In this document: in pieces, positions 27,997 to 49,481 of the stretch
Layout: the number at the start of each line of letters is the position of its first letter
Numbering within the stretch: the stretch's first letter is position 1
Source of the DNA: Candidatus Woesearchaeota archaeon
GTDB taxonomy: Archaea > Nanobdellota > Nanobdellia > Pacearchaeales > UBA284
Assembly (NCBI GenBank): GCA_964599615.1
Contig: CAZRGF010000004.1
Coordinates: 3,810-67,809 of the forward strand
DNA length: 64,000 nucleotides
Direction: 5' to 3'
Notes under the pieces: model-generated
The model's input: the letters and a program-made list of their open reading frames with translations, nothing else
Database searches by the model: none
What the model was told of the DNA's origin: nothing
Program-made: the position numbers and the translations under genes

Positions 27997-30282
27997 TCAG
28001 CCTTTCTTAATCTCTTTTTTCATCCAATCTTCCCAGTCAGTGAAAACCCTCTTGCCTTTGGGCACACCGATTTCTGCCTGAATCTTCTCAGAAATTTCAT
28101 GGAAAGCATTATTTGCTTTCAAGACAAATTCAGCTTCCAATAGATTTGGATTTTTTGCTTTTAAACTTGCCTCAACTAAAGTCTGTTTTATCTTCGCTCT
28201 TAAAAGAATATTATCCCAGACAGCATCCCATGAACCTGCCCAGCCCTTGACATTTGAAGCAATATCTTTTAGAACTTCTGACTCACCATTAATAAAATCA
28301 TCAGTTGATTTGATATCATCTTTAATTACATCATATTTCATTAAATCTAGAAAACCTTTTTCAGCAAGAGGATCAACTGTCCAATGTTTTCTGACTTCTG
28401 TAATCTCTAATAATCTTCTCCATTTATGCAATCCATCTGAACTTTTAATTGGATTAACAATCGTGATAATATCAGTTGCTTTAAAACTTGTGGTAGGAAC
28501 TTTCAGATCATTGACTACTCTGTCAAAAACCCCATACGCTGAAGCTCCGTGAATTGTTCCTGCAACAACATTGGCTAATGCCCCTACTCTCATTGCTTCA
28601 TAAAGAGCTAAGGCTTCTGTACTTCTAACTTCCCCAACAATTAAACAAGAATCTCCTAATCTTAAGCTAGTTCTAATACCTTCTTCAGCAGCCATTTCAC
28701 TTGTTTCCCTAGCTAAAGCTTCTCGAACTTTCATTCTTAAAATATCATAGCCCATAGTTCTAAAAGCATCAACAGGAAGTTCCATTGTTCCCTCTATGGT
28801 AATTATTCTATTCCTTTGCATAATTTCTAGCATGCATGCTCCAAGCAAAGATGTTTTTCCTGAGCTTCTTGTTCCTGCTATTAATAAAGTTCTACCACCA
28901 TCAATTAAAAAAGATAACAAACCAGCAGACATAGCATTCAACATCTTGCCCTTGATAAACAAAGGCAAAGTCCATGGTTTGTCTCTGTGTCTCCTGAATA
29001 CATAAGATAATCCATATGGGCTTAAAGGTTGTTGAATAATAGCGACTCTTGCCCTAGATGTTTCAAGGAGTAATTCAGTATCTAGGACTGAATTCGCTTC
29101 ATCTAGGGGCCTTCCAGACATCATCCTAAATTTAGCTGCCCAAGAATCAGTATCTTCTTGACTAGGGACTATATTAGTATCACACTCGTCATATTCTCCA
29201 TGTCTTACAAAAATCTGGACTAAGCCAGCAGGAGCATTGACCATAATATCCTGAAGATGTTCATCTTGAAGCAGAACTTCTATCAAACCAAAACCAATTG
29301 TTTGTCTCACCAATATTGTAGCAAGTTTATTGATTTGTTTGAAATTTAAGGGCATTTTCCTTGCAGTAGCAAGCTCCTGAAGCAGATCCTTTGCAATATT
29401 GAAAAAAACTTGTCTAATCCGGCTTGGATCTGTAAATTCCTCTGCTTTTGGCTTATGTTCCAGCAAAACATTTCTAGCTAAATTAACTAAGCTCTGAAGC
29501 TCTTCATTTAAAGTGAATTCAGGTGCATTTAGATGATAAAGGTATTTTGTTTGGTTAGGGACTTTTAAAATCGAGACAGTGCTCTGGTCATATTCGTTTC
29601 CTATTTGATACTCATCGATAATTTCAGCATCTGCGGGAAGAGAAGAGATTAATCTAGTGTAAGTGAAGTTAGGGATTACCTCTGGTCTGAAAATTTCTTT
29701 GTATATATCTCTTGACCTTAATTTATATCCAGAGAGTTTAAGATTAGCTTCCTTGACTATTTGTGTTTTTTGAAGCATCAAAATTATTTTTGCCAATAAT
29801 TTTAAATAACCAGTTTCACAGTTAGTGCATTCACCAGTGAAGTTTTTTGGATTTGCTTTTTCTTCCTGATATACTCTTCTTGCTTCCATATAACATGCAA
29901 TAGGGTCCTGTTTCAACAAAGTCAGAACAAGATAACGCATCATCCCGTATCTTTGGGCAACACATCTCTTGCAAGTATAAGGAGCTAAAGAGTTCATTAC
30001 CAATACTTTCTCTTGTTTGATAAGTTTTTCATAAATCTGAGCTATTTCCATCAACATCGCGACCTGATTTGAAGGATAGCTGTAGTTCCTTTGTTGGACA
30101 AAAATAACCTTTGTAGCGCTTTGTACTTCTAGAAGATAATCCACTGTTCTTGCCATCACAATAGCACTATCGCCTATCTCTGGAACACTTGGAGACCCAA
30201 GATAATTTACATAAAGAATATCTTGCTTTGCTTCTCTCTTTATTTCATAACCGTATAATTTGGTTTCTGGTTTGAACAACAT
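27997..30282 (-). CDS. type IV pilus/archaellum assembly ATPase (PilB/FlaI/VirB11 secretion-ATPase superfamily) with long N-terminal extension
   Basis: Walker A LLIAGTRSSGKTSLLGA; 761 aa. Confidence 0.8.
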   Translation of the reverse strand: MLFKPETKLYGYEIKREAKQDILYVNYLGSPSVPEIGDSAIVMARTVDYLLEVQSATKVIFVQQRNYSYPSNQVAMLMEIAQIYEKLIKQEKVLVMNSLAPYTCKRCVAQRYGMMRYLVLTLLKQDPIACYMEARRVYQEEKANPKNFTGECTNCETGYLKLLAKIILMLQKTQIVKEANLKLSGYKLRSRDIYKEIFRPEVIPNFTYTRLISSLPADAEIIDEYQIGNEYDQSTVSILKVPNQTKYLYHLNAPEFTLNEELQSLVNLARNVLLEHKPKAEEFTDPSRIRQVFFNIAKDLLQELATARKMPLNFKQINKLATILVRQTIGFGLIEVLLQDEHLQDIMVNAPAGLVQIFVRHGEYDECDTNIVPSQEDTDSWAAKFRMMSGRPLDEANSVLDTELLLETSRARVAIIQQPLSPYGLSYVFRRHRDKPWTLPLFIKGKMLNAMSAGLLSFLIDGGRTLLIAGTRSSGKTSLLGACMLEIMQRNRIITIEGTMELPVDAFRTMGYDILRMKVREALARETSEMAAEEGIRTSLRLGDSCLIVGEVRSTEALALYEAMRVGALANVVAGTIHGASAYGVFDRVVNDLKVPTTSFKATDIITIVNPIKSSDGLHKWRRLLEITEVRKHWTVDPLAEKGFLDLMKYDVIKDDIKSTDDFINGESEVLKDIASNVKGWAGSWDAVWDNILLRAKIKQTLVEASLKAKNPNLLEAEFVLKANNAFHEISEKIQAEIGVPKGKRVFTDWEDWMKKEIKKG

Positions 30283-38353: not shown

Positions 38354-39115
38354 TCATCTTTTTTCAATTGCAAATATCCATCTTATTGGTTCAACACCTG
38401 CTGGAACTAAAACTTTTCTATTGGTCAAAGAATAGACCAGATAATTGCTTTTTTCTTCAGTTTTGTCTAAATTCCAGAATTCGCTCGTTAATTTACAATT
38501 ATTCTTGCATACACCAAATTTCTCAAAGATTTCATTGATTTCGGTGATTCTGGTTTTTTCATCCACCTGGATTGAATCCTTTAACTTAAATTTGTAATTT
38601 ATAGAATAACTAAAAAACTTGTTTTTTCTAGATGAATTCAAATTAATCTCGCTGGTTTGGCATTTTAAAACATCTAAATTATTTTCTTTCTCAATATTGC
38701 AGGAAACTTCTATTTTCTGACCATTCAAAGGATAATCCCTTAGATAGTCCTTGATATAATCCGCGGTTCTGTCTTCAAGAATTATCTTAATAAAATCGGG
38801 GTTAGGCTTGCAGTTATTATCTAAAATGAATATGTCTTCAGAAGTCAATCTACAATCAATGACATTCTTGTCAATAAAACTATAACCAGCGATTTCCTTC
38901 AAAGCGCTATCAAAACCCAAACTCATTGAATCTGAAAAGTAAGACTCGAGATTTTTGGAATCAATATCTTGAAGTTCTTCAGCCCCAATACTTGCTTCAA
39001 TTCTTTGGTTAGCAATCGTAAAAAACCAGACCATCAGCCCGAATAGAAGAAAAGTCATCAAAGCTAACATCCTCCCAAAACCTATTCCATGTTTATCTGA
39101 CTTATATCTTATCAT
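38354..39115 (-). CDS. membrane-anchored hypothetical protein (last gene of the pilus-like array)
   Basis: single N-terminal TM followed by extracellular-type domain. Confidence 0.4.
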   Translation of the reverse strand: MIRYKSDKHGIGFGRMLALMTFLLFGLMVWFFTIANQRIEASIGAEELQDIDSKNLESYFSDSMSLGFDSALKEIAGYSFIDKNVIDCRLTSEDIFILDNNCKPNPDFIKIILEDRTADYIKDYLRDYPLNGQKIEVSCNIEKENNLDVLKCQTSEINLNSSRKNKFFSYSINYKFKLKDSIQVDEKTRITEINEIFEKFGVCKNNCKLTSEFWNLDKTEEKSNYLVYSLTNRKVLVPAGVEPIRWIFAIEKR

Positions 39116-39576
39116 TTTGAATACCTTATTTTAATTGCAATTAATCCATCAGCTGGAACAAAAAAACAAAATTCTTCTGGATTATTTTCAATTGGGCAAT
39201 TCCCCCTAGAATTTTCGTAAAAAATTTCCGAACCACATTTTTTATTCTCTTCAGAACAGATTACATCGATTTCTTGTTCTATCCTCTCTTCTGTCCCCTG
39301 AATCCGGGATCTTAATCTATCACTGAAACTAATCCCATTTTCTTTTTCTTGCATCAATGAAGATAGCATGAAATTTATCTTATCATGAATAACCAGGGAA
39401 TCGATTTTTTCTGCCCTTACTTTGTCTACACTTTTGTATAGCACTACTGAGAATAAGATAAGCAGGAACAATATGAAGATGATAACGATGAATGAAGGAA
39501 AATCTTCTATTACCTCACCAACTTGTGCCTTTTTACTTGACATTTTTATCATTTTTATCAATAGCGATGAAAACAT
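39112..39576 (-). CDS. pilin-like protein with class-III-type signal (KKAQ-V...)
   Basis: basic residues, A-Q, then ~22-residue hydrophobic segment. Confidence 0.4.
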   Translation of the reverse strand: MFSSLLIKMIKMSSKKAQVGEVIEDFPSFIVIIFILFLLILFSVVLYKSVDKVRAEKIDSLVIHDKINFMLSSLMQEKENGISFSDRLRSRIQGTEERIEQEIDVICSEENKKCGSEIFYENSRGNCPIENNPEEFCFFVPADGLIAIKIRYSK

Positions 39577-40000
39577 TTATTCTTTCTAGCTTGTTATTAT
39601 AAAAAACACTGTAACTTTTGGAAAAACAAGAAGGTAAATAAGTCCCTTGAACATTGCCTTCTTTTGCTTTGCAATATGTCCATAACTCGGTTTTTCCGAT
39701 TGTGAAGTTCTTCTCTTCACTAGGAAGTTGGAGTTTCATCAGCAAGAAAATATTTTTTTCATCAATGTAAAGACAGTTTTTTATTGTTTCTTGGTTAAAA
39801 TCATTTAGTTCCAAGATACCATTCCCAGTTAAACAGTCAACTGATTTTTCTGCAAGAGTTGCTGCTTCAATCTGCCTTATGTCATATGGTGTTGAGAACC
39901 TGAACCATACCACCCCAACAAAGACCCCGATAATCAATATTATCATTATAAACCTGTATACAAAAATCACCGAATATTCTGTTTGTGCTCTTTTGTTCAT
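39533..40000 (-). CDS. pilin-like protein with class-III-type signal (MNKRAQ-T...)
   Basis: same K-[KR]-A-Q signal subtype. Confidence 0.4.
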   Translation of the reverse strand: MNKRAQTEYSVIFVYRFIMIILIIGVFVGVVWFRFSTPYDIRQIEAATLAEKSVDCLTGNGILELNDFNQETIKNCLYIDEKNIFLLMKLQLPSEEKNFTIGKTELWTYCKAKEGNVQGTYLPSCFSKSYSVFYNNKLERINVFIAIDKNDKNVK

Positions 40001-40018
40001 TTAATAAATGGGGCTTTC

Positions 40019-40092
40019 CATCCTCCAACTTTAAGTGTTTGGTATAAGCATAACTCTAATAAACATATAGCAACTGCGCTGACGCTTTTCAT
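40019..40092. repeat. repeat family B-related element (catcctccaactttaagt ... tagcaactgcgctgacgcttttcat)
   Basis: same two end-blocks as 3126-3143 plus 3297-3321, here uninterrupted. Confidence 0.5.
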
Positions 40093-40126
40093 TAATGTGT
40101 TTTTCATGATATAGACGTTTTGAGTT

Positions 40127-40474
40127 TTATTTTTCTTTTATTTCTATTAAGGTGTTTTTGCCTTCTTTTTGGATTTCCAGAGTTGCGTTATAACAAGGAT
40201 AGTAATAACCGATATCAATAGAATCTTTCTTAATTAAGAAACCAATATCTTTTTTCTCGATTATTCCAGGGTAGGTAACATTGATTACAGTTCCTGGCTC
40301 TGCCCCTAAACTGACTAAACAGAGTTGTTTTGCAAGAATTTGTTTTTTTGCCAAATCACCAGTAGCATTATTAGCTGAAAAGAAAAGCAGAACAGCAAAC
40401 AACATCCCTACAAATATTAGGGTTACTATTGTCTGAAGAGCTAGACTTTCTCCTCCTTTTTTTGATTTACTCAT
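40127..40474 (-). CDS. pilin-like protein (MSKSKKGG-ESLALQTIVTLIF...)
   Basis: K-K-G-G followed by hydrophobic helix; 115 aa. Confidence 0.45.
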   Translation of the reverse strand: MSKSKKGGESLALQTIVTLIFVGMLFAVLLFFSANNATGDLAKKQILAKQLCLVSLGAEPGTVINVTYPGIIEKKDIGFLIKKDSIDIGYYYPCYNATLEIQKEGKNTLIEIKEK

Positions 40475-40605
40475 TTCTTATACCTCTTTCAGATTTAACA
40501 GATAATATGACTTAATAAATTTTATTAGAAAACATTGATTATTACATCAGTATGTGTAAGGCATTATTTCTTAATTTTTCAGAAAAGCAGAGTGCAGTTA
40601 TTAGG

Positions 40606-40745
40606 TAACTTGATTTCGCTGGAGATAAGTGTAAATTATTTAGATTTTATTTTTGATTCTTGTTTTCGAAGAATTTTTGAAAAAGTTTAGAAGACTAGGG
40701 GCATAATATCCTGTAACATAATTCGCAGTGGCGAAGTCAAGTAGG
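40606..40745. mobile_element. MITE-like element family A copy
   Basis: 5' aacttgatttcgctggagataagtgtaaa ... 3' gtggcgaagtcaagt; both ends flanked by taggtaactt. Confidence 0.55.
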
Positions 40746-40799
40746 TAACTTAATTTATTAAGATTAGATTTCAACTTACAGGGAGATAAACTTTAAGGA

Positions 40800-41735
40800 T
40801 TATGGGATGCTCTCTATATTCTGGCAAGTTTTAGTGATTTCGCTTTCATCTAATGAAAGCAAGAAAACACCAGCACAACCCTTCCTGTTTCCATCACAAT
40901 GAACTGCTGCAGCATGTGTACTTGTCCAAAATGTAGTTATTTGCCCAGCAGTTATCGCAGCAAGAGCTGCAACACCTATCCAAATTGAAGCCGTCCCCAC
41001 AGTTGATAACGCTCCAGCACCTTCAACCCCCATAGCACCCATGGCTCCAAGAGGGCCAACTACTGATTTGGTTAATCCTGCTCCTCCAAAGACCAGTGCT
41101 CCCACCATAGCACCTTCTCTTTTCAATGCACTTCCGAGATCATCTCCCTTTATCATCATAAAAACAACAGCTAAATCTTTATCTGTTTTCGAAGGTTCTG
41201 CATTTACTTTTTCTTCTAATCCCCCCTGTCCTCCGGTAAAGTATTCCATGTAAGTGATATTTTTGATAGGAACCTTGGTATCAGCAAGATAATCCATAAG
41301 ATATATTGATTGGGGGTTTTCCTTTAATTTTTCATCAAATTTTATTGTTGAACAAATAAGACAATTTGCTTTTGAAGTTCCAAACAATCCAATTTCTCTC
41401 CATGCGCTTTCAGAAAAAAAATCTAAAGGATTTCCTTCAGAATCACTGACCATCCACCAACAGTCATACATCGCATTTGCAACTGTTCTTTCAATAGTCA
41501 CCTGGTCCCTGGTTTTGATTTCTATATTCTCGGTTTTGCATTTTAATGGGACTAAGGACTGGGTTGGTTGAATCCCCATAATAGACGCACTTCTTAGGAC
41601 TATAGAATTATGGCAGGCATCTTTATCAGGACTGATTTTGATATTGTTCATAACAATAAAAAGGACAGCCCCTGCAAGAATCACTATGATTAAAGAGATT
41701 ATAGTTGTCTGCGTTAAAGTTCCTCTTTTATTCAT
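40800..41735 (-). CDS. large pilin-like/adhesin-like protein (start placed at MNKRG-TLTQTTIISLII...)
   Basis: class-III-like N-terminus, Cys-containing ectodomain, Gly/Ala-rich C-terminal hydrophobic segment; the upstream in-frame extension to 41834 looks unlikely to be coding. Confidence 0.45.
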   Translation of the reverse strand: MNKRGTLTQTTIISLIIVILAGAVLFIVMNNIKISPDKDACHNSIVLRSASIMGIQPTQSLVPLKCKTENIEIKTRDQVTIERTVANAMYDCWWMVSDSEGNPLDFFSESAWREIGLFGTSKANCLICSTIKFDEKLKENPQSIYLMDYLADTKVPIKNITYMEYFTGGQGGLEEKVNAEPSKTDKDLAVVFMMIKGDDLGSALKREGAMVGALVFGGAGLTKSVVGPLGAMGAMGVEGAGALSTVGTASIWIGVAALAAITAGQITTFWTSTHAAAVHCDGNRKGCAGVFLLSLDESEITKTCQNIESIP

Positions 41736-41909
41736 TTTTAATATTCCTTTTATGATTTCCAAACTTATAATACTTTTGCTGTTCTTAATATAGCATATAA
41801 AATACCAAAGATTATTGCTGCTGCTCCGATCCACAAAATTATTTTTATGATCGTTTCGGGTATTTTATCCATGTTTTTATTATCTCTTTATCAATATTTT
41901 TTTATGATA

Positions 41910-41966
41910 AACTTATAGATGGCTTTTGTCAGCCAAATCTTTTGTTTAGTAACTATGCTTTCGCTT
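41910..41966. repeat. repeat family B copy (cttatagatgg-cttttgtcagcc-aaatcttttg...gctttcgctttt)
   Basis: aligns with 18572-18627; different but self-complementary hairpin stem. Confidence 0.5.
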
Positions 41967-41980
41967 TTAGTATTATCTAT

Positions 41981-43126
41981 TTAAGTTTGAGCAGCCTGTT
42001 TATTCTTTAAATCTTCTGCTTTGATGTCATTAACGATAACTAAAGGGCCGAGCCATAAATTAGCTTTTTCAGGCAAACAGTTTGTTCCAGATATTCTTGC
42101 TTTTCCTGCTCCTACATAAAGGTCAATATGCTGGCCTTGGATTGCTCCCCCACGATCTTCAGCAAGATAATATTTCTTATTCCATTTTTCACACTCTTCT
42201 TTGCAAGTGCTTTGCTCACAGTCAAATTCCAGATAAACCACACTTGCTCCACTTGAAGAACTTGGGATAACCCCTGGATCAACAGCAATTGTTCTTCCAG
42301 GAGTTGGGTCTGTCCCTAGACTTGTTGTTCCAAACTCACAAGCCGAACATCCTAGAAAAGGTGGACTTGTGTCTTTAGTCTCTTTTATGGTGCTATACGA
42401 ATAGATTTCCCCATCAGTGCCCAATCCAGAACCTTCACATTTTACAGTCTCATAAAATTGTTTGTCATCTCCTAATTGGCAATAATAAAGTCCATCTCCC
42501 CCTGTTTTTGAATTAGGGTTTTTCCATAATTGAAAATCACCCTCATAAGGCGTATAGTATCTAGTTACTTGAAATTCTCCCAAACTCTTCCAGGTGCTAT
42601 CTTTTTGATATTTTCCAGCTGATTCAGAACTGGCAATCTGCTGATTTTCTAGGTTCATAATTTTTTCTTTTACATCATAGACATCGCCATTATCTGTAAC
42701 AAAAAATTTCTTAAATACAGTGATTGGGAGCAGGAAAAATTTATTGTCGGACATAAATGGTTTTTTTAATTCTCTGCATATTGCAGATTTACATTCTTTT
42801 TTGCATATACAAACAGCATACTTGTAAGCAAAAGAACTGGGCTTAGTGAATCTATCATATTTATTAACTGAAGTATCAAAAGTCACGATTGTCCAGCCAG
42901 TAGGGACATAAAAATAAACTGCCTCTGAATCTCCTGGTTCCAAGCCAGATAATGTTTGATAAAGTCTGTCTAGAGTCCCTTTTGCTTGTTGTTCATCTTG
43001 TTTTCCGAATAACATATCATAAAAAATCCCTACTAACGCAATAACCAGAATAATTCCCATAACAGCCAAAATAATCTTTATGATCTGGCTGCTCATCATA
43101 TTCAAACCCGCTTTTTTGTTTAACAT
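41981..43126 (-). CDS. large Cys-rich pilin-like/secreted protein (start placed at MLNKKAG-LNMMSSQIIKIILAV...)
   Basis: class-III-like N-terminus followed by ~350 aa Cys-rich domain. Confidence 0.4.
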   Translation of the reverse strand: MLNKKAGLNMMSSQIIKIILAVMGIILVIALVGIFYDMLFGKQDEQQAKGTLDRLYQTLSGLEPGDSEAVYFYVPTGWTIVTFDTSVNKYDRFTKPSSFAYKYAVCICKKECKSAICRELKKPFMSDNKFFLLPITVFKKFFVTDNGDVYDVKEKIMNLENQQIASSESAGKYQKDSTWKSLGEFQVTRYYTPYEGDFQLWKNPNSKTGGDGLYYCQLGDDKQFYETVKCEGSGLGTDGEIYSYSTIKETKDTSPPFLGCSACEFGTTSLGTDPTPGRTIAVDPGVIPSSSSGASVVYLEFDCEQSTCKEECEKWNKKYYLAEDRGGAIQGQHIDLYVGAGKARISGTNCLPEKANLWLGPLVIVNDIKAEDLKNKQAAQT

Positions 43127-43281
43127 CTTAAACATTAGAAAAAGAACAATATTATATTTAAATCTTCTCAATTAAGAATTTCCTATCTGTGTTGTGATAG
43201 TTCTCCTAATTATTTCTTGGATTTATCCTGAAAGTCGGAATCAATATGGTAGATTATAACACATATAGAAGTGATTTAAGA

Positions 43282-43482
43282 TTATTTCCCAGAAGCACTT
43301 GAATTAAATATTCCTAAAGCCATCTTAAGTTTGTCCATAATTACATTTCCAAAATTTCCTAAAGCTCCTGTTGCAATCAATATCATCATAACCAGGACAA
43401 GAAGAACAAGAATCAAGACTATGATTGTGGACATTGATAATTCAATACCACCTTTCTTTGACATTTTAAGGTTAGGGTACAT
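43282..43482 (-). CDS. short pilin (major pilin candidate; MSKKGG-IELSMSTIIVLIL...)
   Basis: about 60 aa, K-K-G-G then hydrophobic helix. Confidence 0.45.
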   Translation of the reverse strand: MYPNLKMSKKGGIELSMSTIIVLILVLLVLVMMILIATGALGNFGNVIMDKLKMALGIFNSSASGK

Positions 43483-43870
43483 AATTTGGATTTTTCTCTG
43501 GGTCCTTGCAATCTTCTTCGTTTTTTAGCGTTACTGTTTTTCCAGCTGCATCCTGGTAAGTATAAACTGCCTTATACCTCACATCTGGCAGATTGTAGCA
43601 ATAGAACAATTCTTCTGTCTGCGTTTTAGAATTTCTTATAGCCACCTGTTCACCACAATATTGCTGCAAGGTGTAAAATTTTTCACATTTATCTTTAGCA
43701 GAAGACAAAACATCGCTCCCATAAACTCCCTGGATTCCAAGTATCTTTTCCCATAAACTTTTTAAGGTTCCAGAAAAGAACAAACCTAATATTACTAGCA
43801 CCATTATCGCTAGGACTAGAATAATGATTGTGGTTATGTTAATCTCTACCCCTTTTTTATTTTGCACCAT
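43472..43870 (-). CDS. pilin-like protein (MVQNKKG-VEINITTIIILVL...)
   Basis: class-III-like N-terminus; Cys-containing C-terminal domain. Confidence 0.45.
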   Translation of the reverse strand: MVQNKKGVEINITTIIILVLAIMVLVILGLFFSGTLKSLWEKILGIQGVYGSDVLSSAKDKCEKFYTLQQYCGEQVAIRNSKTQTEELFYCYNLPDVRYKAVYTYQDAAGKTVTLKNEEDCKDPEKNPNYVP

Positions 43871-43922
43871 TTTTTAATACTAATATAGATTTTTTTTCTT
43901 TTTAAAACTTTCTACTAATCAA

Positions 43923-44894
43923 TTAAACAAAAATGCATTTTTTATTATTTTCCTCTTTGATATCAATGACCATGTTGTCAGTGATTTCTCCATCTGGCCT
44001 AGAACCTTGGCACAGAACAATTGTTTTTTTCACTTCTTGGGGGATAATCAAAGTATCTTGTCCAGAATTAGATGTTTTCATTTGATTTACTTTCTCAGAA
44101 TCATATTCAAGCCATGCTTCTTGATTATTATAATGGATAATAAAACCAGCGGGGAGTTCAACTAATTTTTGCCCAGTTTCAGAATCAAGATCATTGAAAA
44201 AAGCTATTGCATCTGGTCTTCCTTCCTGACATTTTGGCATTTTATCAATTAATTTTCTGATTTGTTCTAAGCTGGCATCTGGGGGAACATTTTTGCTTCC
44301 AATGAACGGTTTCTGGATAATATTTGGTTTATCAGGAACATTGGGATTATAAAAAGTCAAAATAAAGATTCCACTAGATTCTTTTAAAGCATAGTTCGAA
44401 ATAACATACCCCCTTGAGACTTCTTTTACTTTTGGAACTTTTTCAGAAAAAACAAGATTAAAAACAGCAGGCAGATCAACTTTATGAGAAAAAAGTCCGT
44501 CAGGACTTTCTTTTGCAGATAAGATCTTTAATGTAGGTTCTATTTCAAGACTTTTCAATTCTATTTTTTTGTCATATAACGTTAAATTAGATGCGCCATT
44601 ATCTACTTTAAGAACAGCATTTGTATGGAATACAGCTGGAAAATTTGGAAAAGTCTCACAAAAACAAGATTCATCTTTCATAGCTTGGCAGATATCCAGA
44701 TTTTCGACAAGAATATCAAAATTATCAATAATTTCTCCTTTTGTTTCAGGGTCTAGCTTTTCTCCCCCAAGGCCCTGAATCCAAGGCAAAATAGTTTTTG
44801 GGAAAAAAATAATTAATATTCCGATAAGCAAAACAATCATGATCACTGCAAAAATTGCATTTTTTGTTTCAGCTGAAATCTCTTTTTCACTCAT
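43923..44894 (-). CDS. membrane-anchored extracellular protein in the pilus-like array
   Basis: N-terminal TM (AIFAVIMIVLLIGILIIFF) then 290-aa domain. Confidence 0.4.
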   Translation of the reverse strand: MSEKEISAETKNAIFAVIMIVLLIGILIIFFPKTILPWIQGLGGEKLDPETKGEIIDNFDILVENLDICQAMKDESCFCETFPNFPAVFHTNAVLKVDNGASNLTLYDKKIELKSLEIEPTLKILSAKESPDGLFSHKVDLPAVFNLVFSEKVPKVKEVSRGYVISNYALKESSGIFILTFYNPNVPDKPNIIQKPFIGSKNVPPDASLEQIRKLIDKMPKCQEGRPDAIAFFNDLDSETGQKLVELPAGFIIHYNNQEAWLEYDSEKVNQMKTSNSGQDTLIIPQEVKKTIVLCQGSRPDGEITDNMVIDIKEENNKKCIFV

Positions 44895-44925
44895 GTTTTA
44901 AATTGTTTGGGGCAATAAGCTAATA

Positions 44926-44990
44926 CCCCTTATAGCTGGCTGTAACAGCAGCCAAACCTTTTATTTAGCAACTGCGCTTCGCTTTTCTCC
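44926..44990. repeat. repeat family B copy (ccccttatagctgg-ctgtaacagcagcc-aaacctttt...gcgcttcgcttttc)
   Basis: aligns with 18572-18627 and 41910-41966; hairpin stem shows a compensatory change. Confidence 0.6.
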
Positions 44991-45023
44991 TCCTTTTCGA
45001 ACTTATTTATAATCTTAATCATT

Positions 45024-45233
45024 TTATATTACACCACCCAATTTGAGTAAGTTTATTAATACTATCCACCAATTGACACCCATATTAACCCAATCCTTTC
45101 TTAGGAGGTTATAGACTGCTAAGAATACTCCTGCTAGTAACCATAGAATTCTTAACCATTGGTCATTAAAGAGAACTGAGCTGACTAATAGAATCATTCC
45201 TATAATCGCTAATAAATTTGTTATCCATTTCAT
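45024..45233 (-). CDS. small 2-TM membrane protein
   Basis: 69 aa, hydrophobic. Confidence 0.3.
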   Translation of the reverse strand: MKWITNLLAIIGMILLVSSVLFNDQWLRILWLLAGVFLAVYNLLRKDWVNMGVNWWIVLINLLKLGGVI

Positions 45234-45235
45234 TT

Positions 45236-45391
45236 TTATCTCCCAAATCTGAGAAGTTCTTTCAATTTATCTCCCAGATTGATTCCAGAATTTTTAAAAT
45301 AGACGATTGCGATGATGATTATCGCTAATAATACAATTCCGACAATCCACCAGACAATCTCATTCCAGACTACTCCTCTTTTGTTTCCCAT
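45236..45391 (-). CDS. unlisted 51-aa pilin-like ORF (MGNKRG-VVWNEIVWWIVGIVLLAIIII...)
   Basis: translated by hand from the minus strand; N-K-R-G class-III-like signal; below the ORF-track size cut-off. Confidence 0.3.
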   Translation of the reverse strand: MGNKRGVVWNEIVWWIVGIVLLAIIIIAIVYFKNSGINLGDKLKELLRFGR

Positions 45392-45441
45392 CTTCTTCTA
45401 GAAAACAAAACAATTATTTAAATCTTGTCAAATAGAATTTC

Positions 45442-45948
45442 CTAAAGCGCACCTACCCTTTTTCCTTCTTCATAGCCTTCTTTTAATAGTTTTTCTCCAA
45501 TATCTTTTGCTCTTTCAAATCTTGCCCTTTCTCTTGGTAACATTCCAGGAATTTCCTCTACTCTAGCATCCAGAAGATAATCTCCTTCACTATAACCTTT
45601 TATATAAATATTGTCCCCTTCATCTACCTTTAGATTACGATTATTATCATAAACACTAATATATTTTGGCTCGTTGAAAAAACCTAACAAAGTGTAATTA
45701 GTGATATTTGCTTCAGTAAGCCCCCCCTTATAATAAGAAAACTCTTTTGTTACGCCGGCAATTGGCCAAAAAATTGGTCTTTTGCTTATGACATAGCTAT
45801 TATCTGCTGTAAAGTATTGTACCCTCTCAACTTTTCTTCCAGTAAAAAAATTATGTCCTATCATTACTGAGTCAAATACTCTCAAAAGACCAGATAGTCC
45901 AATAACAACTATTCCTGCTATGCCTATTGCTCCTGTTAATTTGCTCAT
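45442..45948 (-). CDS. membrane-anchored hypothetical protein (first gene downstream of the TadC-like gene)
   Basis: N-terminal TM (GAIGIAGIVVIGLSGLL), 168 aa. Confidence 0.4.
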   Translation of the reverse strand: MSKLTGAIGIAGIVVIGLSGLLRVFDSVMIGHNFFTGRKVERVQYFTADNSYVISKRPIFWPIAGVTKEFSYYKGGLTEANITNYTLLGFFNEPKYISVYDNNRNLKVDEGDNIYIKGYSEGDYLLDARVEEIPGMLPRERARFERAKDIGEKLLKEGYEEGKRVGAL

Positions 45949-46013
45949 CCAATAAATTATCTTTCGGGGTTTATAAATCTTTCTTTTGTTGTTATTATAA
46001 AGTTATACTAAAA

Positions 46014-48209
46014 TCACTGCGTTACAATTCCGCCGATAGCAACAGAAGCTAAAGCAGCTAATGCTACTATCGCGACAATAGCTGTTATGAAATAGAGCAT
46101 CATTCCTGTTGATAGATTTTTATAGATCTCATTCTTCTCTCCTAGTTTGTCTTCTCCATTTTCTATAGTAACTAGAGTAATAGTCAGAATAAATATGACT
46201 TCAACAATATAGATTCCTACAGCAACTTGGAGCCAGTAAGGGGGAATCATCTTAGAGATGTCAAACATAGAGACAATAGAACCAATGCCCCCCATGCCTA
46301 TTCCAGAGTCAAGATTAGATCCTGCATCAAGCATAGATTTTAATTTTCCCAAGATCCCGGTTATCATAGAAGCTAAGCCGACGACAATAGCTGAAAGCAA
46401 AGGTGCTAAAAAAGTCATATTGCTTTTCATGCTGCTGGTTATCTCAGACAATAGGTCTTTGAGTCTTTCATTGACAGTATGGATATTCTTAACATATACG
46501 CTTATTGACATCAATGCTTTAGCAGCAATTCCTAGACCTTTTTTAACAGCTTCAATCATTATCTGCATCGATGTTCTTAATAATTCCGAAGGATAATAAT
46601 TAATAGCTCCTCTGCCAGAACTGAAAATAGCGTCTTCAATAGACATGCCTGCTTGCTGGATATTCGTATTAACTAAAGAAAAAAATCCAGCAGAAGCTGT
46701 GCCCTTGGAGCTTTCAGCAACTCTTCCGAAAACCATCTCAGCAGGAACACCATCAGCTAATCTGTTTCCTAACTGAAATATGCTTGAAGAGAATTCTGCT
46801 TCAAGTTTTTTAGTTTGTTCTCTTGTTTTTACAAGTTTATCTGTCTTGAACTTATAAGACAGGATGAAAAATATTGCAATTGCCAAGGGAACAAATAAAG
46901 ATAGTATTAAAGCAGTTGTTCCAAAAGGCCCGACAGTAGCTCCTTTTTCATCAATTATAAAATCAAATAACTTGTTATTCTGTCCTAAGAATCCTAATCC
47001 AAGTTCATTGAAAGTATAATCTTTATTCAATCCCATTGACTCAGCCAACCCGAATTGGAACAAGAATGGAAGAATTCCGAGGATAAAAAAAGGCAGGGCA
47101 ATTAAGAACGCTTTGGTATAATGGCTTTTATCTGCATAATCTTTATAATTTTTATTTTTTTCAAGCAATTCTGTCTCTCCAAATCCGCCTGGTCTTTTAG
47201 CAAGAACATTATTAGTCATATAGAATATTGCAAAAGGAATGACAATATCATACATAACCGCAACATGATACCATCTGACTGCTCCTCCCAATAATGTGGA
47301 AGCTAAAGGCATTAAAGCCAATCCCAAAGTAGGGAGCACAATTCCCAACATATAAACATTAGTTATTGGAGAAGCCACATCATGGCTAAAGTGCAGCATT
47401 TTTTCATAAACCCCATCCAGAATGATTTGAAGAGATTTTTCCAGAGTAGCTAACCTCCTCTCTTCAATTGGTTCATACAAAGAAGATTCAATCATATGGA
47501 AAGATTCAACAAATTCTGGAGCATCTGCTCGCCATTTTTCCAGATAAGCATCTAAAGCATCTTTGATAGTAGGGCATTTTGCTGTTTCAACATCCCAAAA
47601 TATTTTCTTGAAATCTAAAGATAATGGCGGTTGTAGATGCTGGGAAGCAAATCTTATTGCTCCTTCAAGGTTAGAAGTATGCCTCATATAGACGACAATA
47701 TATAGAATAGCAGGGACCATCTGACTAGAAGCTTTTAATTTCCATTTCTGGGCAATTCTTGCAGGCATAGAACCAATGTAATAATAAAAGAAGAAACTTG
47801 TAACTGCTAATAAACCGAAAATCATAGCAATCTCGCCGCTTAATTCTCCAGTCATCATGAAAATAGCGCCTGCAATCAAGAATGACAAGAAAAATGCAAC
47901 TATTAAAGTGAACCAGGCAAGTCCTGAAGATTCATTTGCTTTAACATCAAGATGGCTAGTGTTCAGATCATTCTGGATTTTTTCTTCTTCCTTTGGTTTT
48001 AACTTTACTTTAAAACTTTTCCCTATATTCTTGCAAGCTTTTTCATACCATCCAAGACTTCTCAGAGTTTCTTGCTTAAATTGGTCATAATCTTTAGAAT
48101 AATCAACAGGAAGATCTTTTCCCAATTGATTCGCCATTTTCATCTCAAATTTTCTGAGAATATCTTTGGTGTCTATATTACTTTTTCTATTACTTGGGAT
48201 AGGGACCAT
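46014..48209 (-). CDS. polytopic membrane protein, probable type IV pilus/archaellum platform protein (TadC/FlaJ/PilC-like)
   Basis: 731 aa with many TM helices and cytoplasmic loops; heads an array of pilin-like genes. Confidence 0.5.
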   Translation of the reverse strand: MVPIPSNRKSNIDTKDILRKFEMKMANQLGKDLPVDYSKDYDQFKQETLRSLGWYEKACKNIGKSFKVKLKPKEEEKIQNDLNTSHLDVKANESSGLAWFTLIVAFFLSFLIAGAIFMMTGELSGEIAMIFGLLAVTSFFFYYYIGSMPARIAQKWKLKASSQMVPAILYIVVYMRHTSNLEGAIRFASQHLQPPLSLDFKKIFWDVETAKCPTIKDALDAYLEKWRADAPEFVESFHMIESSLYEPIEERRLATLEKSLQIILDGVYEKMLHFSHDVASPITNVYMLGIVLPTLGLALMPLASTLLGGAVRWYHVAVMYDIVIPFAIFYMTNNVLAKRPGGFGETELLEKNKNYKDYADKSHYTKAFLIALPFFILGILPFLFQFGLAESMGLNKDYTFNELGLGFLGQNNKLFDFIIDEKGATVGPFGTTALILSLFVPLAIAIFFILSYKFKTDKLVKTREQTKKLEAEFSSSIFQLGNRLADGVPAEMVFGRVAESSKGTASAGFFSLVNTNIQQAGMSIEDAIFSSGRGAINYYPSELLRTSMQIMIEAVKKGLGIAAKALMSISVYVKNIHTVNERLKDLLSEITSSMKSNMTFLAPLLSAIVVGLASMITGILGKLKSMLDAGSNLDSGIGMGGIGSIVSMFDISKMIPPYWLQVAVGIYIVEVIFILTITLVTIENGEDKLGEKNEIYKNLSTGMMLYFITAIVAIVALAALASVAIGGIVTQ

Positions 48210-48355: not shown

Positions 48356-48634
48356 ATGTTAAAAATTATGAATATAAGTGATGTTGTTGGAATGAAGCTG
48401 TTTACAGATTCTGGCGACTTTCTTGGAGTTATAGAAGAAGCCAACCTTGTCGACAATAAGCTTGATAGTTGGCGTGTTAAGGTTGGAAGAGATTCTACCC
48501 TAGCCCCATTATTAAGTGGCGCAAGAGGTTTGATAATTCCACACCAATATGTTAAGGCATTTGGTGAAGTTGTTATAATCAGTAAGGCAGCTGTACCAAT
48601 AAAAGAGGATATGTCTGAAGAGTTCGTAGCATAA
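48356..48634 (+). CDS. PRC-barrel domain protein
   Basis: VVGMKLFTDSGDFLGVIEEANLVDNKLDSWRV pattern typical of PRC-barrel proteins; preferred over the overlapping antisense ORF 48247..48678. Confidence 0.5.
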   Translation: MLKIMNISDVVGMKLFTDSGDFLGVIEEANLVDNKLDSWRVKVGRDSTLAPLLSGARGLIIPHQYVKAFGEVVIISKAAVPIKEDMSEEFVA

Positions 48635-48644
48635 ACATCACAAA

Positions 48645-49130
48645 ATGGTCGATACCGTACAAACAACAATATTTGCAAATCCGTTCTTTGTCTATTTATT
48701 ACTACCTTTCTTGCTTGTTTTTGTCATAGTCTTTTCAATTCTTGAAAAAGCAAAGATTCTTGGAGAAAACAAGAAAGCAGCAGATGTGATTGTGGCGATG
48801 GTTATCGCTTTTATATTTGTGGGGGTTTCTTCTGTTGTTGACATTACTTTAAAATTCATCCCAATTATCAGCCTTTTCTTGGTTTTGATTTTAGGTTTCT
48901 TGTTATTATTTGGTTTTGCAGGCATAAAAGTAGAGGGGAACAAAGGATTGCAGATTGCAATCGGCATTGTCCTGGGAGTAGCTTTCATAGGGGTAGTATT
49001 ATGGGCAACAGGTGTTTGGAGTAAAATCATATTTTCAAGTGTAACACTTCAGTATATCTTTTTGTTTTTACTTTTTGGAGGAGCCTTAGCATTGATTGTC
49101 GCAACAGCTCCTAAGCAAAAATCAGCATAG
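48645..49130 (+). CDS. small 4-TM membrane protein, paralog 1 of 3
   Basis: conserved VFSILEKAKILGENKKA block after TM1, shared with 49615 and 50204 ORFs. Confidence 0.4.
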   Translation: MVDTVQTTIFANPFFVYLLLPFLLVFVIVFSILEKAKILGENKKAADVIVAMVIAFIFVGVSSVVDITLKFIPIISLFLVLILGFLLLFGFAGIKVEGNKGLQIAIGIVLGVAFIGVVLWATGVWSKIIFSSVTLQYIFLFLLFGGALALIVATAPKQKSA

Positions 49131-49157
49131 TTAATAATTAAATTTCATGGAGGAAAA

Positions 49158-49481
49158 ATGGGTTATATAGAACTTGAAAAAAGTATTGATGCACACACAG
49201 GCCCGCTAAAAAAAGCTAGGGCAGGAAAAATAGACAATCCTTACAAATTCCTAGAAGATACAGAAAAAGCACTTGATAATGATTATGGGAAACTTGTTTC
49301 ATCAGGATTTGATGTTAAAGTTAAAAACAAACTTCGAGGAAAAATCCTTTCTGGAGTAGAAAGATTAAGGATACTTGCTCTTAAATATACTCCTGAACGA
49401 ACAGGAGATCGTGAAACATATGAAGAGATGGCAACTCGCCTTGCACTTAAATCAGAAGAGCTTGCTAAAATGGATAAATAA
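49158..49481 (+). CDS. hypothetical soluble protein
   Basis: 107 aa ORF between paralogs. Confidence 0.35.
   Translation: MGYIELEKSIDAHTGPLKKARAGKIDNPYKFLEDTEKALDNDYGKLVSSGFDVKVKNKLRGKILSGVERLRILALKYTPERTGDRETYEEMATRLALKSEELAKMDK

What the first reader, a model, noticed from the sequence alone, without database searches (positions are those of the whole stretch)
38354..48209. Large archaeal type-IV-pilus-like locus: a TadC/FlaJ-like platform protein followed by about 12 co-directional genes with class-III-type signal peptides of two subtypes
A 731-aa polytopic membrane protein (46014-48209) heads an uninterrupted minus-strand run of genes. Each begins with a short basic stretch followed by a single ~20-residue hydrophobic helix, as in archaeal prepilin-peptidase substrates. 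There are two N-terminal subtypes: K-K-G-G / N-K-[KR]-G (40127, 40800, 41981, 43282, 43472, unlisted 45236-45391) and K-[KR]-A-Q (39112, 39533, plus the distant 61757 ORF). Sizes range from about 51–60 aa (major-pilin candidates 43282-43482 and 45236-45391) to 340–400 aa Cys-rich proteins (adhesin-like). The cognate ATPase (27997-30282, PilB/FlaI family, unusually long at 761 aa) lies 16 kb away. No GxGD-type prepilin peptidase is recognisable in the window; the 7-TM ORF 25102-25803 is the only candidate and lacks the motif. For a small-genome archaeon such a rich surface-appendage repertoire is notable and could mediate host attachment.
Basis: partly seen in the sequence, partly recalled or inferred. 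Interest (0 to 1): 0.65.

Follow-up and report, generated by a model that had tools for sequence, protein, structure and literature searches.

The report
Pacearchaeal type IV pilus locus
This is a real but very divergent type IV pilus gene cluster of a tiny DPANN (Pacearchaeota-group) archaeon, shared by hundreds of related species, and one of its pilin-like subunits carries an enzyme domain that cuts bacterial cell wall, which hints that these archaea use the pilus on bacteria.

Summary
An uninterrupted minus-strand run of 14 ORFs (48209 to 38354) starts with a 731-aa polytopic protein. Eight of the 13 ORFs after it have a canonical class-III signal (M-x-N-K-[KR]-[GA]|hydrophobic helix), and a ninth is near-canonical.

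- **Platform:** the 731-aa protein has no Pfam hit itself. It is still a divergent T2SSF (TadC/FlaJ) platform. 20 of 46 distant family members hit PF00482, and its AlphaFold model matches the EpsF/OutF/PilC cytoplasmic domains.
- **Distribution:** relatives occur in 527 species genomes, all Pacearchaeota/Woesearchaeota-group.
- **ATPase:** the 761-aa ATPase lies 16 kb away in this window. In most relatives that have it nearby, it sits directly upstream of the platform.
- **Prepilin peptidase:** none is encoded in the window, and the 7-TM ORF is not one. Canonical A24 peptidases flank the same operon in 30 of 84 related loci.
the 381-aa "Cys-rich" member is a modular pilin with a MltA-type 3D lytic-transglycosylase domain. 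Its orthologues keep the pilin-like N-terminal module but carry SLT, glucosaminidase or no enzyme domain. Another pilin family carries Amidase_2.

Verdict: a new variant of a known kind, namely an archaeal type IV filament system whose minor pilins carry peptidoglycan hydrolases. A bacterial target is inferred, not shown.

The parts
46014..48209 (-). Platform protein (731 aa), a divergent member of the T2SSF / TadC / FlaJ family with two repeats
   Evidence: No Pfam or NCBIfam hit for the protein itself. PF00482 hits 1 of 30 close and 20 of 46 distant family members, best 3.2e-10. AF2 model has pLDDT 79. Foldseek gives prob 1.00 and TM(target) 0.64-0.73 to the OutF, EpsF and PilC cytoplasmic domains. 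hhalign of the N-half against the C-half gives E = 4.7e-4. The family has 1243 representative clusters and occurs in 527 species genomes.
45442..45948 (-). 168-aa protein with an N-terminal TM helix and no canonical class III motif; lineage-specific insertion
   Evidence: N-terminus MSKLTGAIGIAG. A homologue is found only in the same species' contig. No family hit.
45236..45391 (-). 51-aa mini-prepilin (MGNKRG|VVWNEIVWW...), essentially a single helix, Flp-like in size
   Evidence: Passes the strict motif rule. ~50-aa orthologues lie directly after the platform in 32 of 84 loci.
45024..45233 (-). 69-aa two-TM protein without a motif; possibly a degenerate duplicate of the 51-aa gene
   Evidence: Weak similarity to the 51-aa protein, E = 8.5e-4.
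43923..44894 (-). 323-aa N-terminally anchored accessory protein (6 Cys); the motif is degenerate here but present in some orthologues
   Evidence: K-N-A|IFAV here. The L009 orthologue has NKKG|VSAIV. It holds the same operon position in L003 and L004.
43472..43870 (-). 132-aa prepilin (MVQNKKG|VEINITTIIILV), a candidate structural pilin
   Evidence: Passes the strict motif rule. 31 loci have orthologues, consensus N-K-K-[GA]|[AV]-E-I-N-I-x-T-I. Paralogous to the 60-aa gene, E = 1.5e-7.
43282..43464 (-). 60-aa prepilin (MSKKG|GIELSMSTIIVL), a candidate major pilin
   Evidence: It holds the same operon position in L003/L017 (59 aa).
41981..43126 (-). 381-aa modular prepilin: class III signal, a conserved ~150-aa N-terminal module, and a C-terminal MltA-type 3D (lytic transglycosylase) domain at residues ~278-343
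   Evidence: PF06725 at 3.4e-11, above the cut-off. Aligns to E. coli MltA with all three Asp positions conserved. Orthologues share the N-terminal module at 39-44% identity but carry SLT, Glucosaminidase, 3D or no enzyme domain.
41765..41872 (-). Unlisted 35-aa single-TM ORF, the positional orthologue of a ~43-aa mini-prepilin; it lacks the K-K-G leader here
   Evidence: Compare L003 15488-15619 and L004 14100-14228.
40800..41735 (-). 311-aa prepilin-like protein with 8 Cys and a Gly-rich hydrophobic segment; the most widely conserved large subunit and a candidate tip or adhesin subunit
   Evidence: MNKRG|TLTQ. Orthologues in 62 of 84 loci. Conserved Cys and DKEACHxSVxLRS, MYDCWW motifs. No family or PDB match.
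40127..40474 (-). 115-aa prepilin (MSKSKKG|GESLALQ)
   Evidence: Orthologues in 24 loci.
39533..40000 (-). 155-aa prepilin of the K-[KR]-A|Q type; in other species this family carries an inserted Amidase_2 domain
   Evidence: Orthologues in 41 loci. Amidase_2 at 2e-26 to 9e-20 in L043, L049, L058 and L075.
39112..39543 (-). 143-aa prepilin of the K-K-A|Q-V-G-E type
   Evidence: Its start overlaps the end of the upstream gene by 11 nt.
38354..39115 (-). 253-aa last gene of the operon, near-canonical signal (K-H-G|IGFGRM)
   Evidence: Orthologues read NKRG|IGFGRM and NKKA|IGFG. It overlaps the preceding gene by 4 nt.
27997..30282 (-). Secretion ATPase (761 aa, T2SSE / FlaI / CpaF family) with a ~280-aa N-terminal extension; the cognate motor, displaced by 16 kb
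   Evidence: PF00437 at 3.2e-15. NCBIfam FlaI at 2.8e-37, below the cut-off. PDB 2OAP at 5e-25, CpaF at 1e-16, FlaI at 3e-16, with Walker A and B aligned. A homologue lies within 10 kb of the platform in 50 of 84 loci, and directly upstream and co-directional in 30.
61757..63601 (+). Orphan 614-aa protein with a class-III-like N-terminus (MFKKKA|QVTLFVILAV); not part of the operon
   Evidence: No family hit. No homologue in the 84 related loci.

Best explanation
The locus encodes the membrane platform and the subunit set of an archaeal type IV filament (pilus) machine. This machine is characteristic of the Pacearchaeota/Woesearchaeota group of DPANN archaea.

Proposed mechanism:
1. About nine prepilin-like proteins are inserted into the membrane by their N-terminal helix.
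2. An A24 prepilin peptidase, encoded outside this window, removes the short leader after the [GA] of N-K-[KR]-[GA]. The step is inferred from the motif and from A24 genes in the same operon in relatives.
3. The hexameric T2SSE-type ATPase (27997-30282) docks on the cytoplasmic domains of the divergent T2SSF platform (46014-48209). It drives the subunits out of the membrane into a helical filament. The step is inferred by homology.
4. The small subunits (51, 60 and 132 aa) are the likely structural pilins.
5. The large ones are minor or tip subunits. The 381-aa subunit is a modular pilin that presents a MltA-type 3D lytic-transglycosylase domain.

Because archaea have no murein, the enzyme most likely acts on the wall of a bacterial partner or prey. 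The pilus would then serve attachment plus local wall breaching. Only the enzyme family is shown here. Activity, location on the filament and the target are all inferred.
For: - **Platform:** T2SSF hits in 20 of 46 family members. The fold matches EpsF/OutF/PilC domains at prob 1.0 and TM 0.64-0.73. The two halves align as an internal repeat.
- **ATPase:**. It is adjacent to and co-directional with the platform in 30 of the 50 relatives that have it nearby.
- **Signal motif in the window:** 8 of 13 locus ORFs pass the strict rule against 2 of 63 elsewhere, p = 2.7e-6.
- **Signal motif in relatives:** 437 ORFs in related loci, with -3 K in 373, -2 K/R in 437, and -1 G in 256 or A in 168. 42 of 59 loci with at least 7 kb downstream hold 6-12 such genes. 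Density is 0.85 per kb inside the operon against 0.11 per kb or less elsewhere.
- **Gene order:** conserved across the window, L003/L017 and L004.
- **Peptidase:** PF01478 at 3e-15, with DFKKREIPDW and GGGDAKL motifs, in 30 of 84 related loci. In 18 it sits at the 3' end of the pilin operon.
- **Enzyme module:** the 3D domain scores 3.4e-11 with all three Asp positions conserved against MltA. The same pilin scaffold carries SLT, Glucosaminidase or 3D domains, and a second pilin family carries Amidase_2. In all, 12 of 59 large class-III-like proteins scanned have such a domain (the window's own plus 11 from related loci).
- **Literature:** murein-degrading enzymes have been noted in Pacearchaeota/Woesearchaeota, with bacteria suggested as hosts (PMC8204110, PMC9723730). 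Pili-like appendages were seen connecting ultrasmall cells to hosts (PMC7906910). Modular pilins are established in bacteria (PMC8179133).
Against: - The 731-aa protein itself gives no T2SSF hit. PDB profile searches reach EpsF only at E = 0.45, and Foldseek E-values are about 0.5.
- No peptidase is in the window, so processing is unproven for this genome.
- No pilin fold could be shown. The AF2 model of the 381-aa protein failed (pLDDT 39.8).
- Hydrolase modules occur in only about a fifth of related loci, so wall cleavage is an accessory function and not the core one.
- Four of the 13 ORFs lack the motif.
- No host is known.
- A 3D domain alone, without the MltA N-terminal domain, may bind murein rather than cleave it.
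Confidence: 0.7

Rival explanations
1. The machine is not a long adhesive pilus. It is a short pseudopilus or surface-display device, like a type II secretion system or the archaeal bindosome. Its job would be to anchor or release class-III-signal enzymes, such as peptidoglycan hydrolases, at the cell surface for scavenging.
For: Enzyme modules of four unrelated families sit on class-III-signal proteins. A 2026 preprint proposes that archaeal type IV filament machines are widely 'functionalised' with SPIII-bearing binding proteins (10.64898/2026.04.22.720090). There are many different minor subunits and no obvious abundant major pilin.
Against: Small 51-60-aa and ~125-aa subunits with highly conserved N-termini look like filament-forming pilins. 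Most loci have no enzyme module. Pili are seen on ultrasmall groundwater cells (PMC7906910).
Confidence: 0.17
2. It is a DNA-uptake (competence-type) pilus, like the ComG or Tad-like transformation pili of bacteria. It would supply DNA or nucleotides to an organism that cannot make them.
For: The operon is followed directly by RPA and RadA in the window, L003 and L004, and RPA lies within 10 kb in 36 of 84 loci. DPANN archaea are thought to scavenge nucleotides (PMC8204110 abstract).
Against: No ComEA/ComEC-like channel or DNA-binding pilin was detected among the locus proteins. Synteny with housekeeping genes in tiny genomes is weak evidence. Hydrolase modules point to cell walls, not DNA.
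Confidence: 0.08
3. The downstream proteins are ordinary Sec signal-anchored membrane or secreted proteins that merely sit next to an unrelated polytopic membrane protein.
For: The 731-aa protein has no direct family hit. Four ORFs lack the motif. No peptidase is in the window.
Against: An invariant basic pair followed by G or A directly before the helix occurs in 437 orthologous and paralogous ORFs. The genes are co-operonic with a T2SSE ATPase, a T2SSF-family platform and an A24 peptidase in relatives.
Confidence: 0.03
4. It is an archaellum (motility) locus.
For: The best NCBIfam match of the ATPase is FlaI, at 2.8e-37.
Against: That score of 128.7 is far below the cut-off of 550. No locus protein matches archaellin at E<=1 in the Pfam scans, and no FlaF/G/H/X-type accessory stood out. 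The subunits are too small or too modular.
Confidence: 0.01

Closest known systems
Archaeal type IV filament (TFF) systems as classified by Makarova et al. 2016 and Sivabalasarma & Albers 2026 (Aap, Ups, Epd/system 1, system 4 subsystems)
   Same: The same four core parts are present: a FlaI/PilB-type ATPase, a T2SSF platform, several class-III-signal subunits and an A24 peptidase (the last seen in relatives). The ATPase has a variable N-terminal domain, as those authors describe.
   Different: The platform is a single 731-aa protein so divergent that Pfam and NCBIfam miss it. The leader has a lineage-specific N-K-[KR]-[GA] signature. The operon holds 9-12 subunit genes in a conserved order. 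Subunits carry peptidoglycan hydrolase modules, which the preprint does not mention. I could not assign it to a named subsystem because no arCOG models were available.
Bacterial Tad/Flp pilus (TadA/CpaF, TadB/TadC, Flp, TadV)
   Same: The ATPase is related to CpaF/TadA. JGI names some homologues of the platform 'TadB'. There are very short (51-60 aa) one-helix subunits cleaved after G.
   Different: The organism is an archaeon. There is one fused platform instead of TadB plus TadC. No G/XXXXEY Flp motif is present, and none of the TadZ, RcpA or CpaB-type parts is detected in the locus.
Modular type IV pilins of bacteria (e.g. Streptococcus sanguinis PilB and PilC; Raynaud et al. 2021, PMC8179133)
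   Same: A small pilin module with a class III signal is fused to a functional module, probably exposed at the filament tip. The module is exchanged between lineages.
   Different: Here the grafted modules are murein hydrolases (3D, SLT, GH73 glucosaminidase, Amidase_2), and the host is an archaeon with no murein of its own. That paper's text does not mention peptidoglycan or hydrolase modules.
MltA / YuiC-type 3D-domain lytic transglycosylases
   Same: The C-terminal 3D domain keeps all three Asp positions aligned to E. coli MltA.
   Different: There is no MltA N-terminal domain. The 3D domain is fused to a pilin-like module and is very Cys-rich. Activity is untested.
Large extracellular murein-lytic-transglycosylase proteins of Pacearchaeota/Woesearchaeota (Castelle et al. 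2021, PMC8204110; Vigneron et al. 2022, PMC9723730)
   Same: The same lineages are involved, the same inference is drawn (action on bacterial walls), and the GH23/SLT chemistry overlaps.
   Different: Those are proteins of up to 3000 aa that were not linked to pili. These are 340-415-aa proteins with prepilin leaders inside the pilus operon.

Membership tests
Type IV filament (TFF) superfamily system | Secretion ATPase of the T2SSE / PilB / FlaI family | tested here: met
   PF00437 at 3.2e-15. PDB 2OAP at 5e-25, with Walker motifs aligned. Genetically linked to the platform in relatives.
Type IV filament (TFF) superfamily system | Polytopic platform protein of the T2SSF (PilC/TadC/FlaJ) family | tested here: met
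   Met at family and structure level only. 20 of 46 family members hit PF00482. Foldseek gives prob 1.0 to EpsF/OutF/PilC domains. The window protein alone gives no hit.
Type IV filament (TFF) superfamily system | Subunits with a class III signal peptide: short basic leader, G or A at -1, then a ~20-residue hydrophobic helix | tested here: met
   8 strict and 1 near-canonical in the window. 437 in relatives, with conserved N-K-[KR]-[GA]. Cleavage itself was not tested.
Type IV filament (TFF) superfamily system | Dedicated class III signal peptidase (Peptidase_A24: PibD/FlaK/EppA) | tested here: inconclusive
   Absent from the 64-kb window. Present within 10 kb of the platform in 30 of 84 related loci, PF01478 at 3e-15. 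The rest of this genome could not be searched.
Type IV filament (TFF) superfamily system | Pilin fold (long alpha-1 helix packed on a beta-sheet) and assembly into a filament | tested here: inconclusive
   The AF2 model of the 381-aa subunit has pLDDT 39.8; only the N-terminal helix is predicted. Filament formation cannot be tested with these tools.
Archaellum | Archaellin subunits plus FlaF/G/H and FlaCDE or FlaX accessories | tested here: not met
   No archaellin or accessory family hit among the locus proteins at E<=1. The FlaI model score of 128.7 is far below the cut-off of 550.
MltA-type lytic transglycosylase (3D domain) | 3D domain with three conserved Asp | tested here: met
   PF06725 scores 43.6 bits against a cut-off of 23.8. 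The Asp of AVDPG, AEDRGG and HIDLY align to the Asp positions of MltA.
MltA-type lytic transglycosylase (3D domain) | MltA N-terminal domain and demonstrated murein cleavage | tested here: not met
   No MltA-domain hit. The region before the 3D domain is the pilin-like module shared with orthologues carrying SLT or glucosaminidase. Activity cannot be tested here.
Peptidase_A24 (for the 7-TM ORF 25102-25803) | Two invariant catalytic Asp, the second in GxGD | tested here: not met
   No Pfam or NCBIfam hit. No invariant Asp pair or GxGD in an alignment of 8 homologues. No similarity to Pacearchaeota A24 proteins.

The most novel reading that the evidence does not exclude
The Pacearchaeota/Woesearchaeota pilus is a cross-domain attack or attachment organelle. 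Its minor pilins would act as exchangeable warheads, carrying a lytic transglycosylase, glucosaminidase or amidase. The filament tip would then bind and locally open the peptidoglycan of a bacterial host. That would make these abundant, uncultured archaea episymbionts or predators of bacteria rather than of other archaea.
Probability: 0.3. Interest if true: 0.8.

Novelty: new variant of a known kind. Interest (0 to 1): 0.55.

Why it matters
Pacearchaeota and Woesearchaeota are among the most abundant uncultured archaea in groundwater and sediments. Their hosts are unknown.

This locus is a core feature shared by over 500 species. Standard domain models miss its platform protein, so surveys built on such models may undercount it.

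Murein hydrolase modules of four unrelated families have been grafted repeatedly onto pilin scaffolds of this one machine. That gives a concrete, testable link between two separate earlier observations in these lineages: pili seen on ultrasmall cells, and murein-degrading enzymes in their genomes. It points to bacteria as the partners. It also extends the concept of 'modular pilins' from bacteria to archaea, and to enzymatic cargo that acts on another domain of life.

Tried and rejected
- **Direct family scans of the platform:** Pfam and NCBIfam scans of the 731-aa protein gave no T2SSF hit.
- **Profile searches of PDB sequences:** alignments A1 and A2 found nothing better than EpsF at E = 0.45.
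- **The search for related loci with the distant alignment A2:** A1 worked.
- **7-TM ORF 25102-25803 as prepilin peptidase:** rejected. It has 8 homologues, no invariant Asp pair, and is adjacent to the ATPase only in L004.
- **Three 5-TM paralogues next to the platform as peptidase candidates:** no support. They show only weak Acyl_transf_3-like noise.
- **Structure of the 381-aa modular pilin:** the AF2 model failed at pLDDT 39.8, because only 6 homologues could be supplied.
- **311-aa Cys-rich family:** a profile search against PDB found nothing.
- **614-aa K-K-K-A|Q protein:** no homologue in related loci and no domain.
- **Archaellum reading:** rejected.
- **RNA elements:** Rfam and tRNA scans of the window found only tRNA-Thr at 58603-58675, so nothing lies in the locus.

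Full report
**Source and setting**

The window has about 33% G+C throughout. It carries archaeal housekeeping genes: RPA, RadA, AglB/STT3, TrmB, FtsZ, SRP54 and ribosomal proteins L44e and S3Ae. The 731-aa protein has a 100% match in public data. All its named relatives come from Candidatus Pacearchaeota, Woesearchaeota or 'Nanoarchaeota' metagenome bins. The organism is therefore a DPANN archaeon of the Pacearchaeota/Woesearchaeota group.

**Observation**

- From 48209 down to 38354 there is an uninterrupted minus-strand run: the 731-aa gene and 13 further ORFs. This count includes an unlisted 35-aa ORF at 41765-41872.
- Several genes overlap or abut, as in an operon. The 39112 gene overlaps 39533-40000 by 11 nt, and 38354-39115 overlaps the 39112 gene by 4 nt.
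- I applied a strict rule: [KR][GA] ending within the first 12 residues, followed by a hydrophobic 16-mer. Eight of the 13 ORFs qualify, against 2 of 63 other ORFs in the window (p = 2.7e-6).
- A ninth ORF (38354-39115) reads K-H-G, but its orthologues read N-K-[KR]-[GA].
- Four ORFs are membrane proteins without the motif: 45442-45948, 45024-45233, 43923-44894 and 41765-41872. 'About 12' is thus an overcount, but the pattern is real and far beyond chance.

**The platform protein**

- The 731-aa protein has no Pfam or NCBIfam match by itself.
- It belongs to a large, well-conserved family. There are 2929 hits in the word-indexed search. The exhaustive search found 1243 representative clusters, 492 of them at E<=1e-30.
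- Each family member was scanned separately. PF00482 (T2SSF) was hit by 1 of 30 close members and by 20 of 46 distant members, best E = 3.2e-10.
- An AlphaFold2 model (pLDDT 79, pTM 0.76) was searched against the PDB with Foldseek. Ten of the top 19 matches are T2SSF cytoplasmic domains: OutF 5nbg, EpsF 2vma/2vmb/3c1q and PilC 2whn. They have probability 0.99-1.00, rmsd about 3 A, and a TM-score normalised to the target of 0.64-0.73. The other top hits have TM below 0.25.
- The Foldseek E-values themselves are only about 0.5. I treat the structure evidence as supportive and the family-level Pfam evidence as the main argument.
[quoted passage not shown] This fits the two-repeat T2SSF architecture.
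It is not met once profiles are used.

**The ATPase**

- ORF 27997-30282 matches T2SSE at 3.2e-15.
- It matches NCBIfam FlaI at 2.8e-37 and TadA at 6.5e-33, both below the equivalog cut-offs.
- Solved structures matched are Archaeoglobus GspE2 (5e-25), CpaF (1e-16) and FlaI (3e-16), with the Walker A and Walker B regions aligned.
- The match starts near residue 282, so about 200-280 residues form an extra N-terminal domain. A 2026 preprint on archaeal type IV filament systems describes variable N-terminal domains of this kind as typical of subsystems (10.64898/2026.04.22.720090).
In 30 of those it is upstream and co-directional, with a median gap of 278 bp. The 16-kb separation in this window is therefore a local rearrangement of an ancestral ATPase-platform operon.

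**The subunits**

The platform family occurs in 527 species-representative genomes. In the flanks of the related loci I found 437 co-directional ORFs with the same N-terminal design.

| Position | Residues (of 437) |
|---|---|
| -4 | N in 230 |
| -3 | K in 373 |
| -2 | K or R in all 437 |
| -1 | G in 256, A in 168 |
| +2 | E is the commonest residue |

After the cleavage site comes a hydrophobic helix.

- Of 59 loci with at least 7 kb downstream of the platform, 42 have 6-12 such genes. The others carry the set upstream or divergently, for example L015 and L022.
- Density is 0.85 per kb in the operon against 0.11 per kb or less elsewhere. The latter figure is inflated by those relocated operons.
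- Gene order is conserved between the window, L003/L017 and L004:
  1. platform
  2. a ~50-aa mini-prepilin
  3. a TM-anchored 200-320-aa protein
  4. a ~125-aa prepilin
  5. a ~60-aa prepilin
  6. 'gene 4' (150-415 aa)
  7. a ~43-aa mini-protein
  8. a ~305-aa 8-Cys protein
  9. ~115-aa, ~152-aa and ~140-aa prepilins
  10. a ~250-aa protein
  11. then RPA and RadA
- Each family keeps its own residues after the cleavage site. Examples are [AV]-E-I-N-I-x-T-I for the 132-aa family and Q-x-G-E for the 143-aa family.
They are not two sharply separate leader classes.
- A conserved basic pair followed by G or A directly before the helix is the recognition site of prepilin peptidases, as established for PibD, FlaK and EppA substrates. 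It is not a property of ordinary signal anchors.

**The peptidase**

- No ORF in the window matches Peptidase_A24, and no GxGD-type motif sits in a membrane context.
- The 7-TM ORF 25102-25803 has only eight database homologues and no invariant Asp pair. It is not similar to real Pacearchaeota A24 proteins. It is directly adjacent to the ATPase only in L004. It is not a prepilin peptidase.
- A motif search of the related loci found proteins with DFKKREIPDW and GGGDAKL. These match PF01478 at 3.1e-15 and 1.9e-09, the second also matching the archaeal A24 C-terminal domain.
- Homologues lie within 10 kb of the platform in 30 of 84 loci. In 18 they are at the 3' end of the co-directional pilin operon, and in 11 they are upstream on the other strand.
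- The lineage thus has the complete four-part system: ATPase, platform, prepilins and A24 peptidase. In this genome the peptidase must lie outside the 64 kb, which I could not check.

- The 381-aa 'Cys-rich' protein (41981-43126) has a 3D domain (PF06725, 3.4e-11, above the gathering score).
- It aligns to E. coli MltA with all three signature Asp positions conserved: AVDPG, AEDRGG and HIDLY.
- Its first ~150 residues (signal, helix and a small domain) are shared with the positional orthologues in other species. Identity is 39% over 145 residues to L020, and 44% over 114 residues to L010. L012 and L020 share 53% over 178 residues.
- The C-terminus differs between orthologues:
  - 3D in the window and L009;
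  - SLT in L010, L012 and L003/L017;
  - Glucosaminidase in L020 and L021;
  - no enzyme domain in the roughly 160-aa versions found in about 22 loci.
- A second subunit family, the 155-aa K-K-A|Q type, carries an Amidase_2 domain in L043, L049, L058 and L075, at 2e-26 to 9e-20.
- Among the 59 large class-III-like proteins scanned (the window's own plus 58 from related loci), 12 carry a murein hydrolase domain from one of four unrelated families. No other enzyme family recurs.
- This is the 'modular pilin' design known from bacteria (PMC8179133), here with murein hydrolases as the grafted module and in archaea.
- None of the papers on archaeal peptidoglycan hydrolases that I checked mention pilins or pili, and none of the three considers class III signals:
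  - PMC8204110 describes large murein-type lytic transglycosylase proteins in Pacearchaeota and Woesearchaeota.
  - PMC9723730 describes GH23 enzymes in Woesearchaeota.
  - PMC12352652 considers only Sec and Tat signals.
- The 2026 TFF preprint does not mention hydrolases.

**Mechanism, with what is shown and what is inferred**

- Shown by computation here: the family membership of ATPase, platform, peptidase (in relatives) and hydrolase domain; the conserved leader motif; the conserved operon; and the exchange of modules.
- Inferred by homology: leader cleavage after [GA], and ATP-driven assembly of subunits on the platform into a filament.
- Inferred from size and conservation: the small subunits (51, 60 and 132 aa) form the filament body, and the large ones are minor or tip subunits.
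- Inferred from the absence of murein in archaea: the hydrolase acts on a bacterial wall.
- I put about 0.9 on 'type IV filament system' and about 0.45 on 'the hydrolase is presented on the filament to a bacterial wall'. The combined statement is scored 0.7.

**Rivals**

- A surface-display or secretion device like the bindosome or T2SS (0.17).
- A DNA-uptake pilus, suggested by the adjacent RPA and RadA genes (0.08).
- Ordinary signal anchors (0.03).
- An archaellum (0.01).

**Novelty and score**

- A type IV pilus locus in a DPANN archaeon is expected in kind. Pili on such cells have been imaged (PMC7906910).
- Three things are new:
  - a platform so divergent that Pfam-A and NCBIfam give no hit;
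  - the lineage-wide operon with its N-K-[KR]-[GA] leader;
  - the repeated grafting of murein hydrolases onto its pilins.
- I rate it a new variant of a known kind, with interest 0.55.

**Limits**

- No pilin fold could be demonstrated.
- Two fold libraries were unavailable.
- The rest of this genome could not be searched for the peptidase.
- No arCOG models were available to place the system in the published classification.

Noticed in passing
window 48356-50698 (+): A PRC-barrel protein (92 aa) and three paralogous 5-TM proteins (161, 183 and 164 aa) lie divergently next to the platform gene. They keep this position in 44-54 of 84 related loci. They match no family, apart from weak Acyl_transf_3-like noise. 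They may be an unrecognised accessory of the pilus machine or an unrelated conserved neighbour.
   Followed up: partly
window 35113-37990 (-): RPA (37019-37990) and RadA (35113-36120) follow the pilin operon directly. The same order occurs in L003/L017 and L004, and RPA lies within 10 kb of the platform in 36 of 84 loci. This could be mere synteny in small genomes or a hint of a link to DNA uptake.
   Followed up: partly
window 58149-63601 (+): A patatin-like phospholipase (59396-60202, 5e-33) sits among several small N-terminally anchored ORFs (58149, 58732, 60388). Nearby is a 614-aa protein with a class-III-like leader (MFKKKA|Q) that has no domain hit and no homologue in the related loci.
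   Followed up: partly
window 2167-11444 (-): A protein N-glycosylation cluster is present: a GT2 (2167-3129), a GT4 (6317-7333), AglB/STT3 (7335-10106) and a polysaccharide flippase (10113-11444). Several pilin-like proteins contain N-x-[ST] sequons, so they may be glycosylated as archaeal pilins usually are.
   Followed up: no
window 25102-25803 (-): This is a fast-evolving 7-TM protein with only 8 database homologues and no family match. It lies in the FtsZ-Spt5 neighbourhood and is directly downstream of the pilus ATPase in L004 only. Function unknown; it is not an A24 peptidase.
   Followed up: yes
window 27997-30282 (-), residues 1-280: The ATPase has a long N-terminal extension with two CxxC pairs (CKRC ... 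CTNC), possibly a zinc-binding module. Its length (median 761 aa) is conserved in relatives.
   Followed up: no
window 40800-41735 (-): The 311-aa subunit family is the most widely conserved large subunit (62 of 84 loci). It has invariant Cys positions and a Gly/Ala-rich hydrophobic stretch near the C-terminus that resembles a glycine-zipper membrane segment. It has no structural or family match.
   Followed up: partly
L006:5603-6790 and proteins P0283/P0284: Some orthologues of the 3D-domain pilin have lost the Pfam-detectable domain or the first signature Asp (SIAAS or SIAVS instead of TIAVD). The enzyme module therefore seems to decay in some lineages.
   Followed up: partly
L015 and L022 (related loci): In some species the pilin genes are split into two divergent clusters upstream of the platform instead of one downstream operon. 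The locus is therefore rearranged repeatedly while its content is kept.
   Followed up: no
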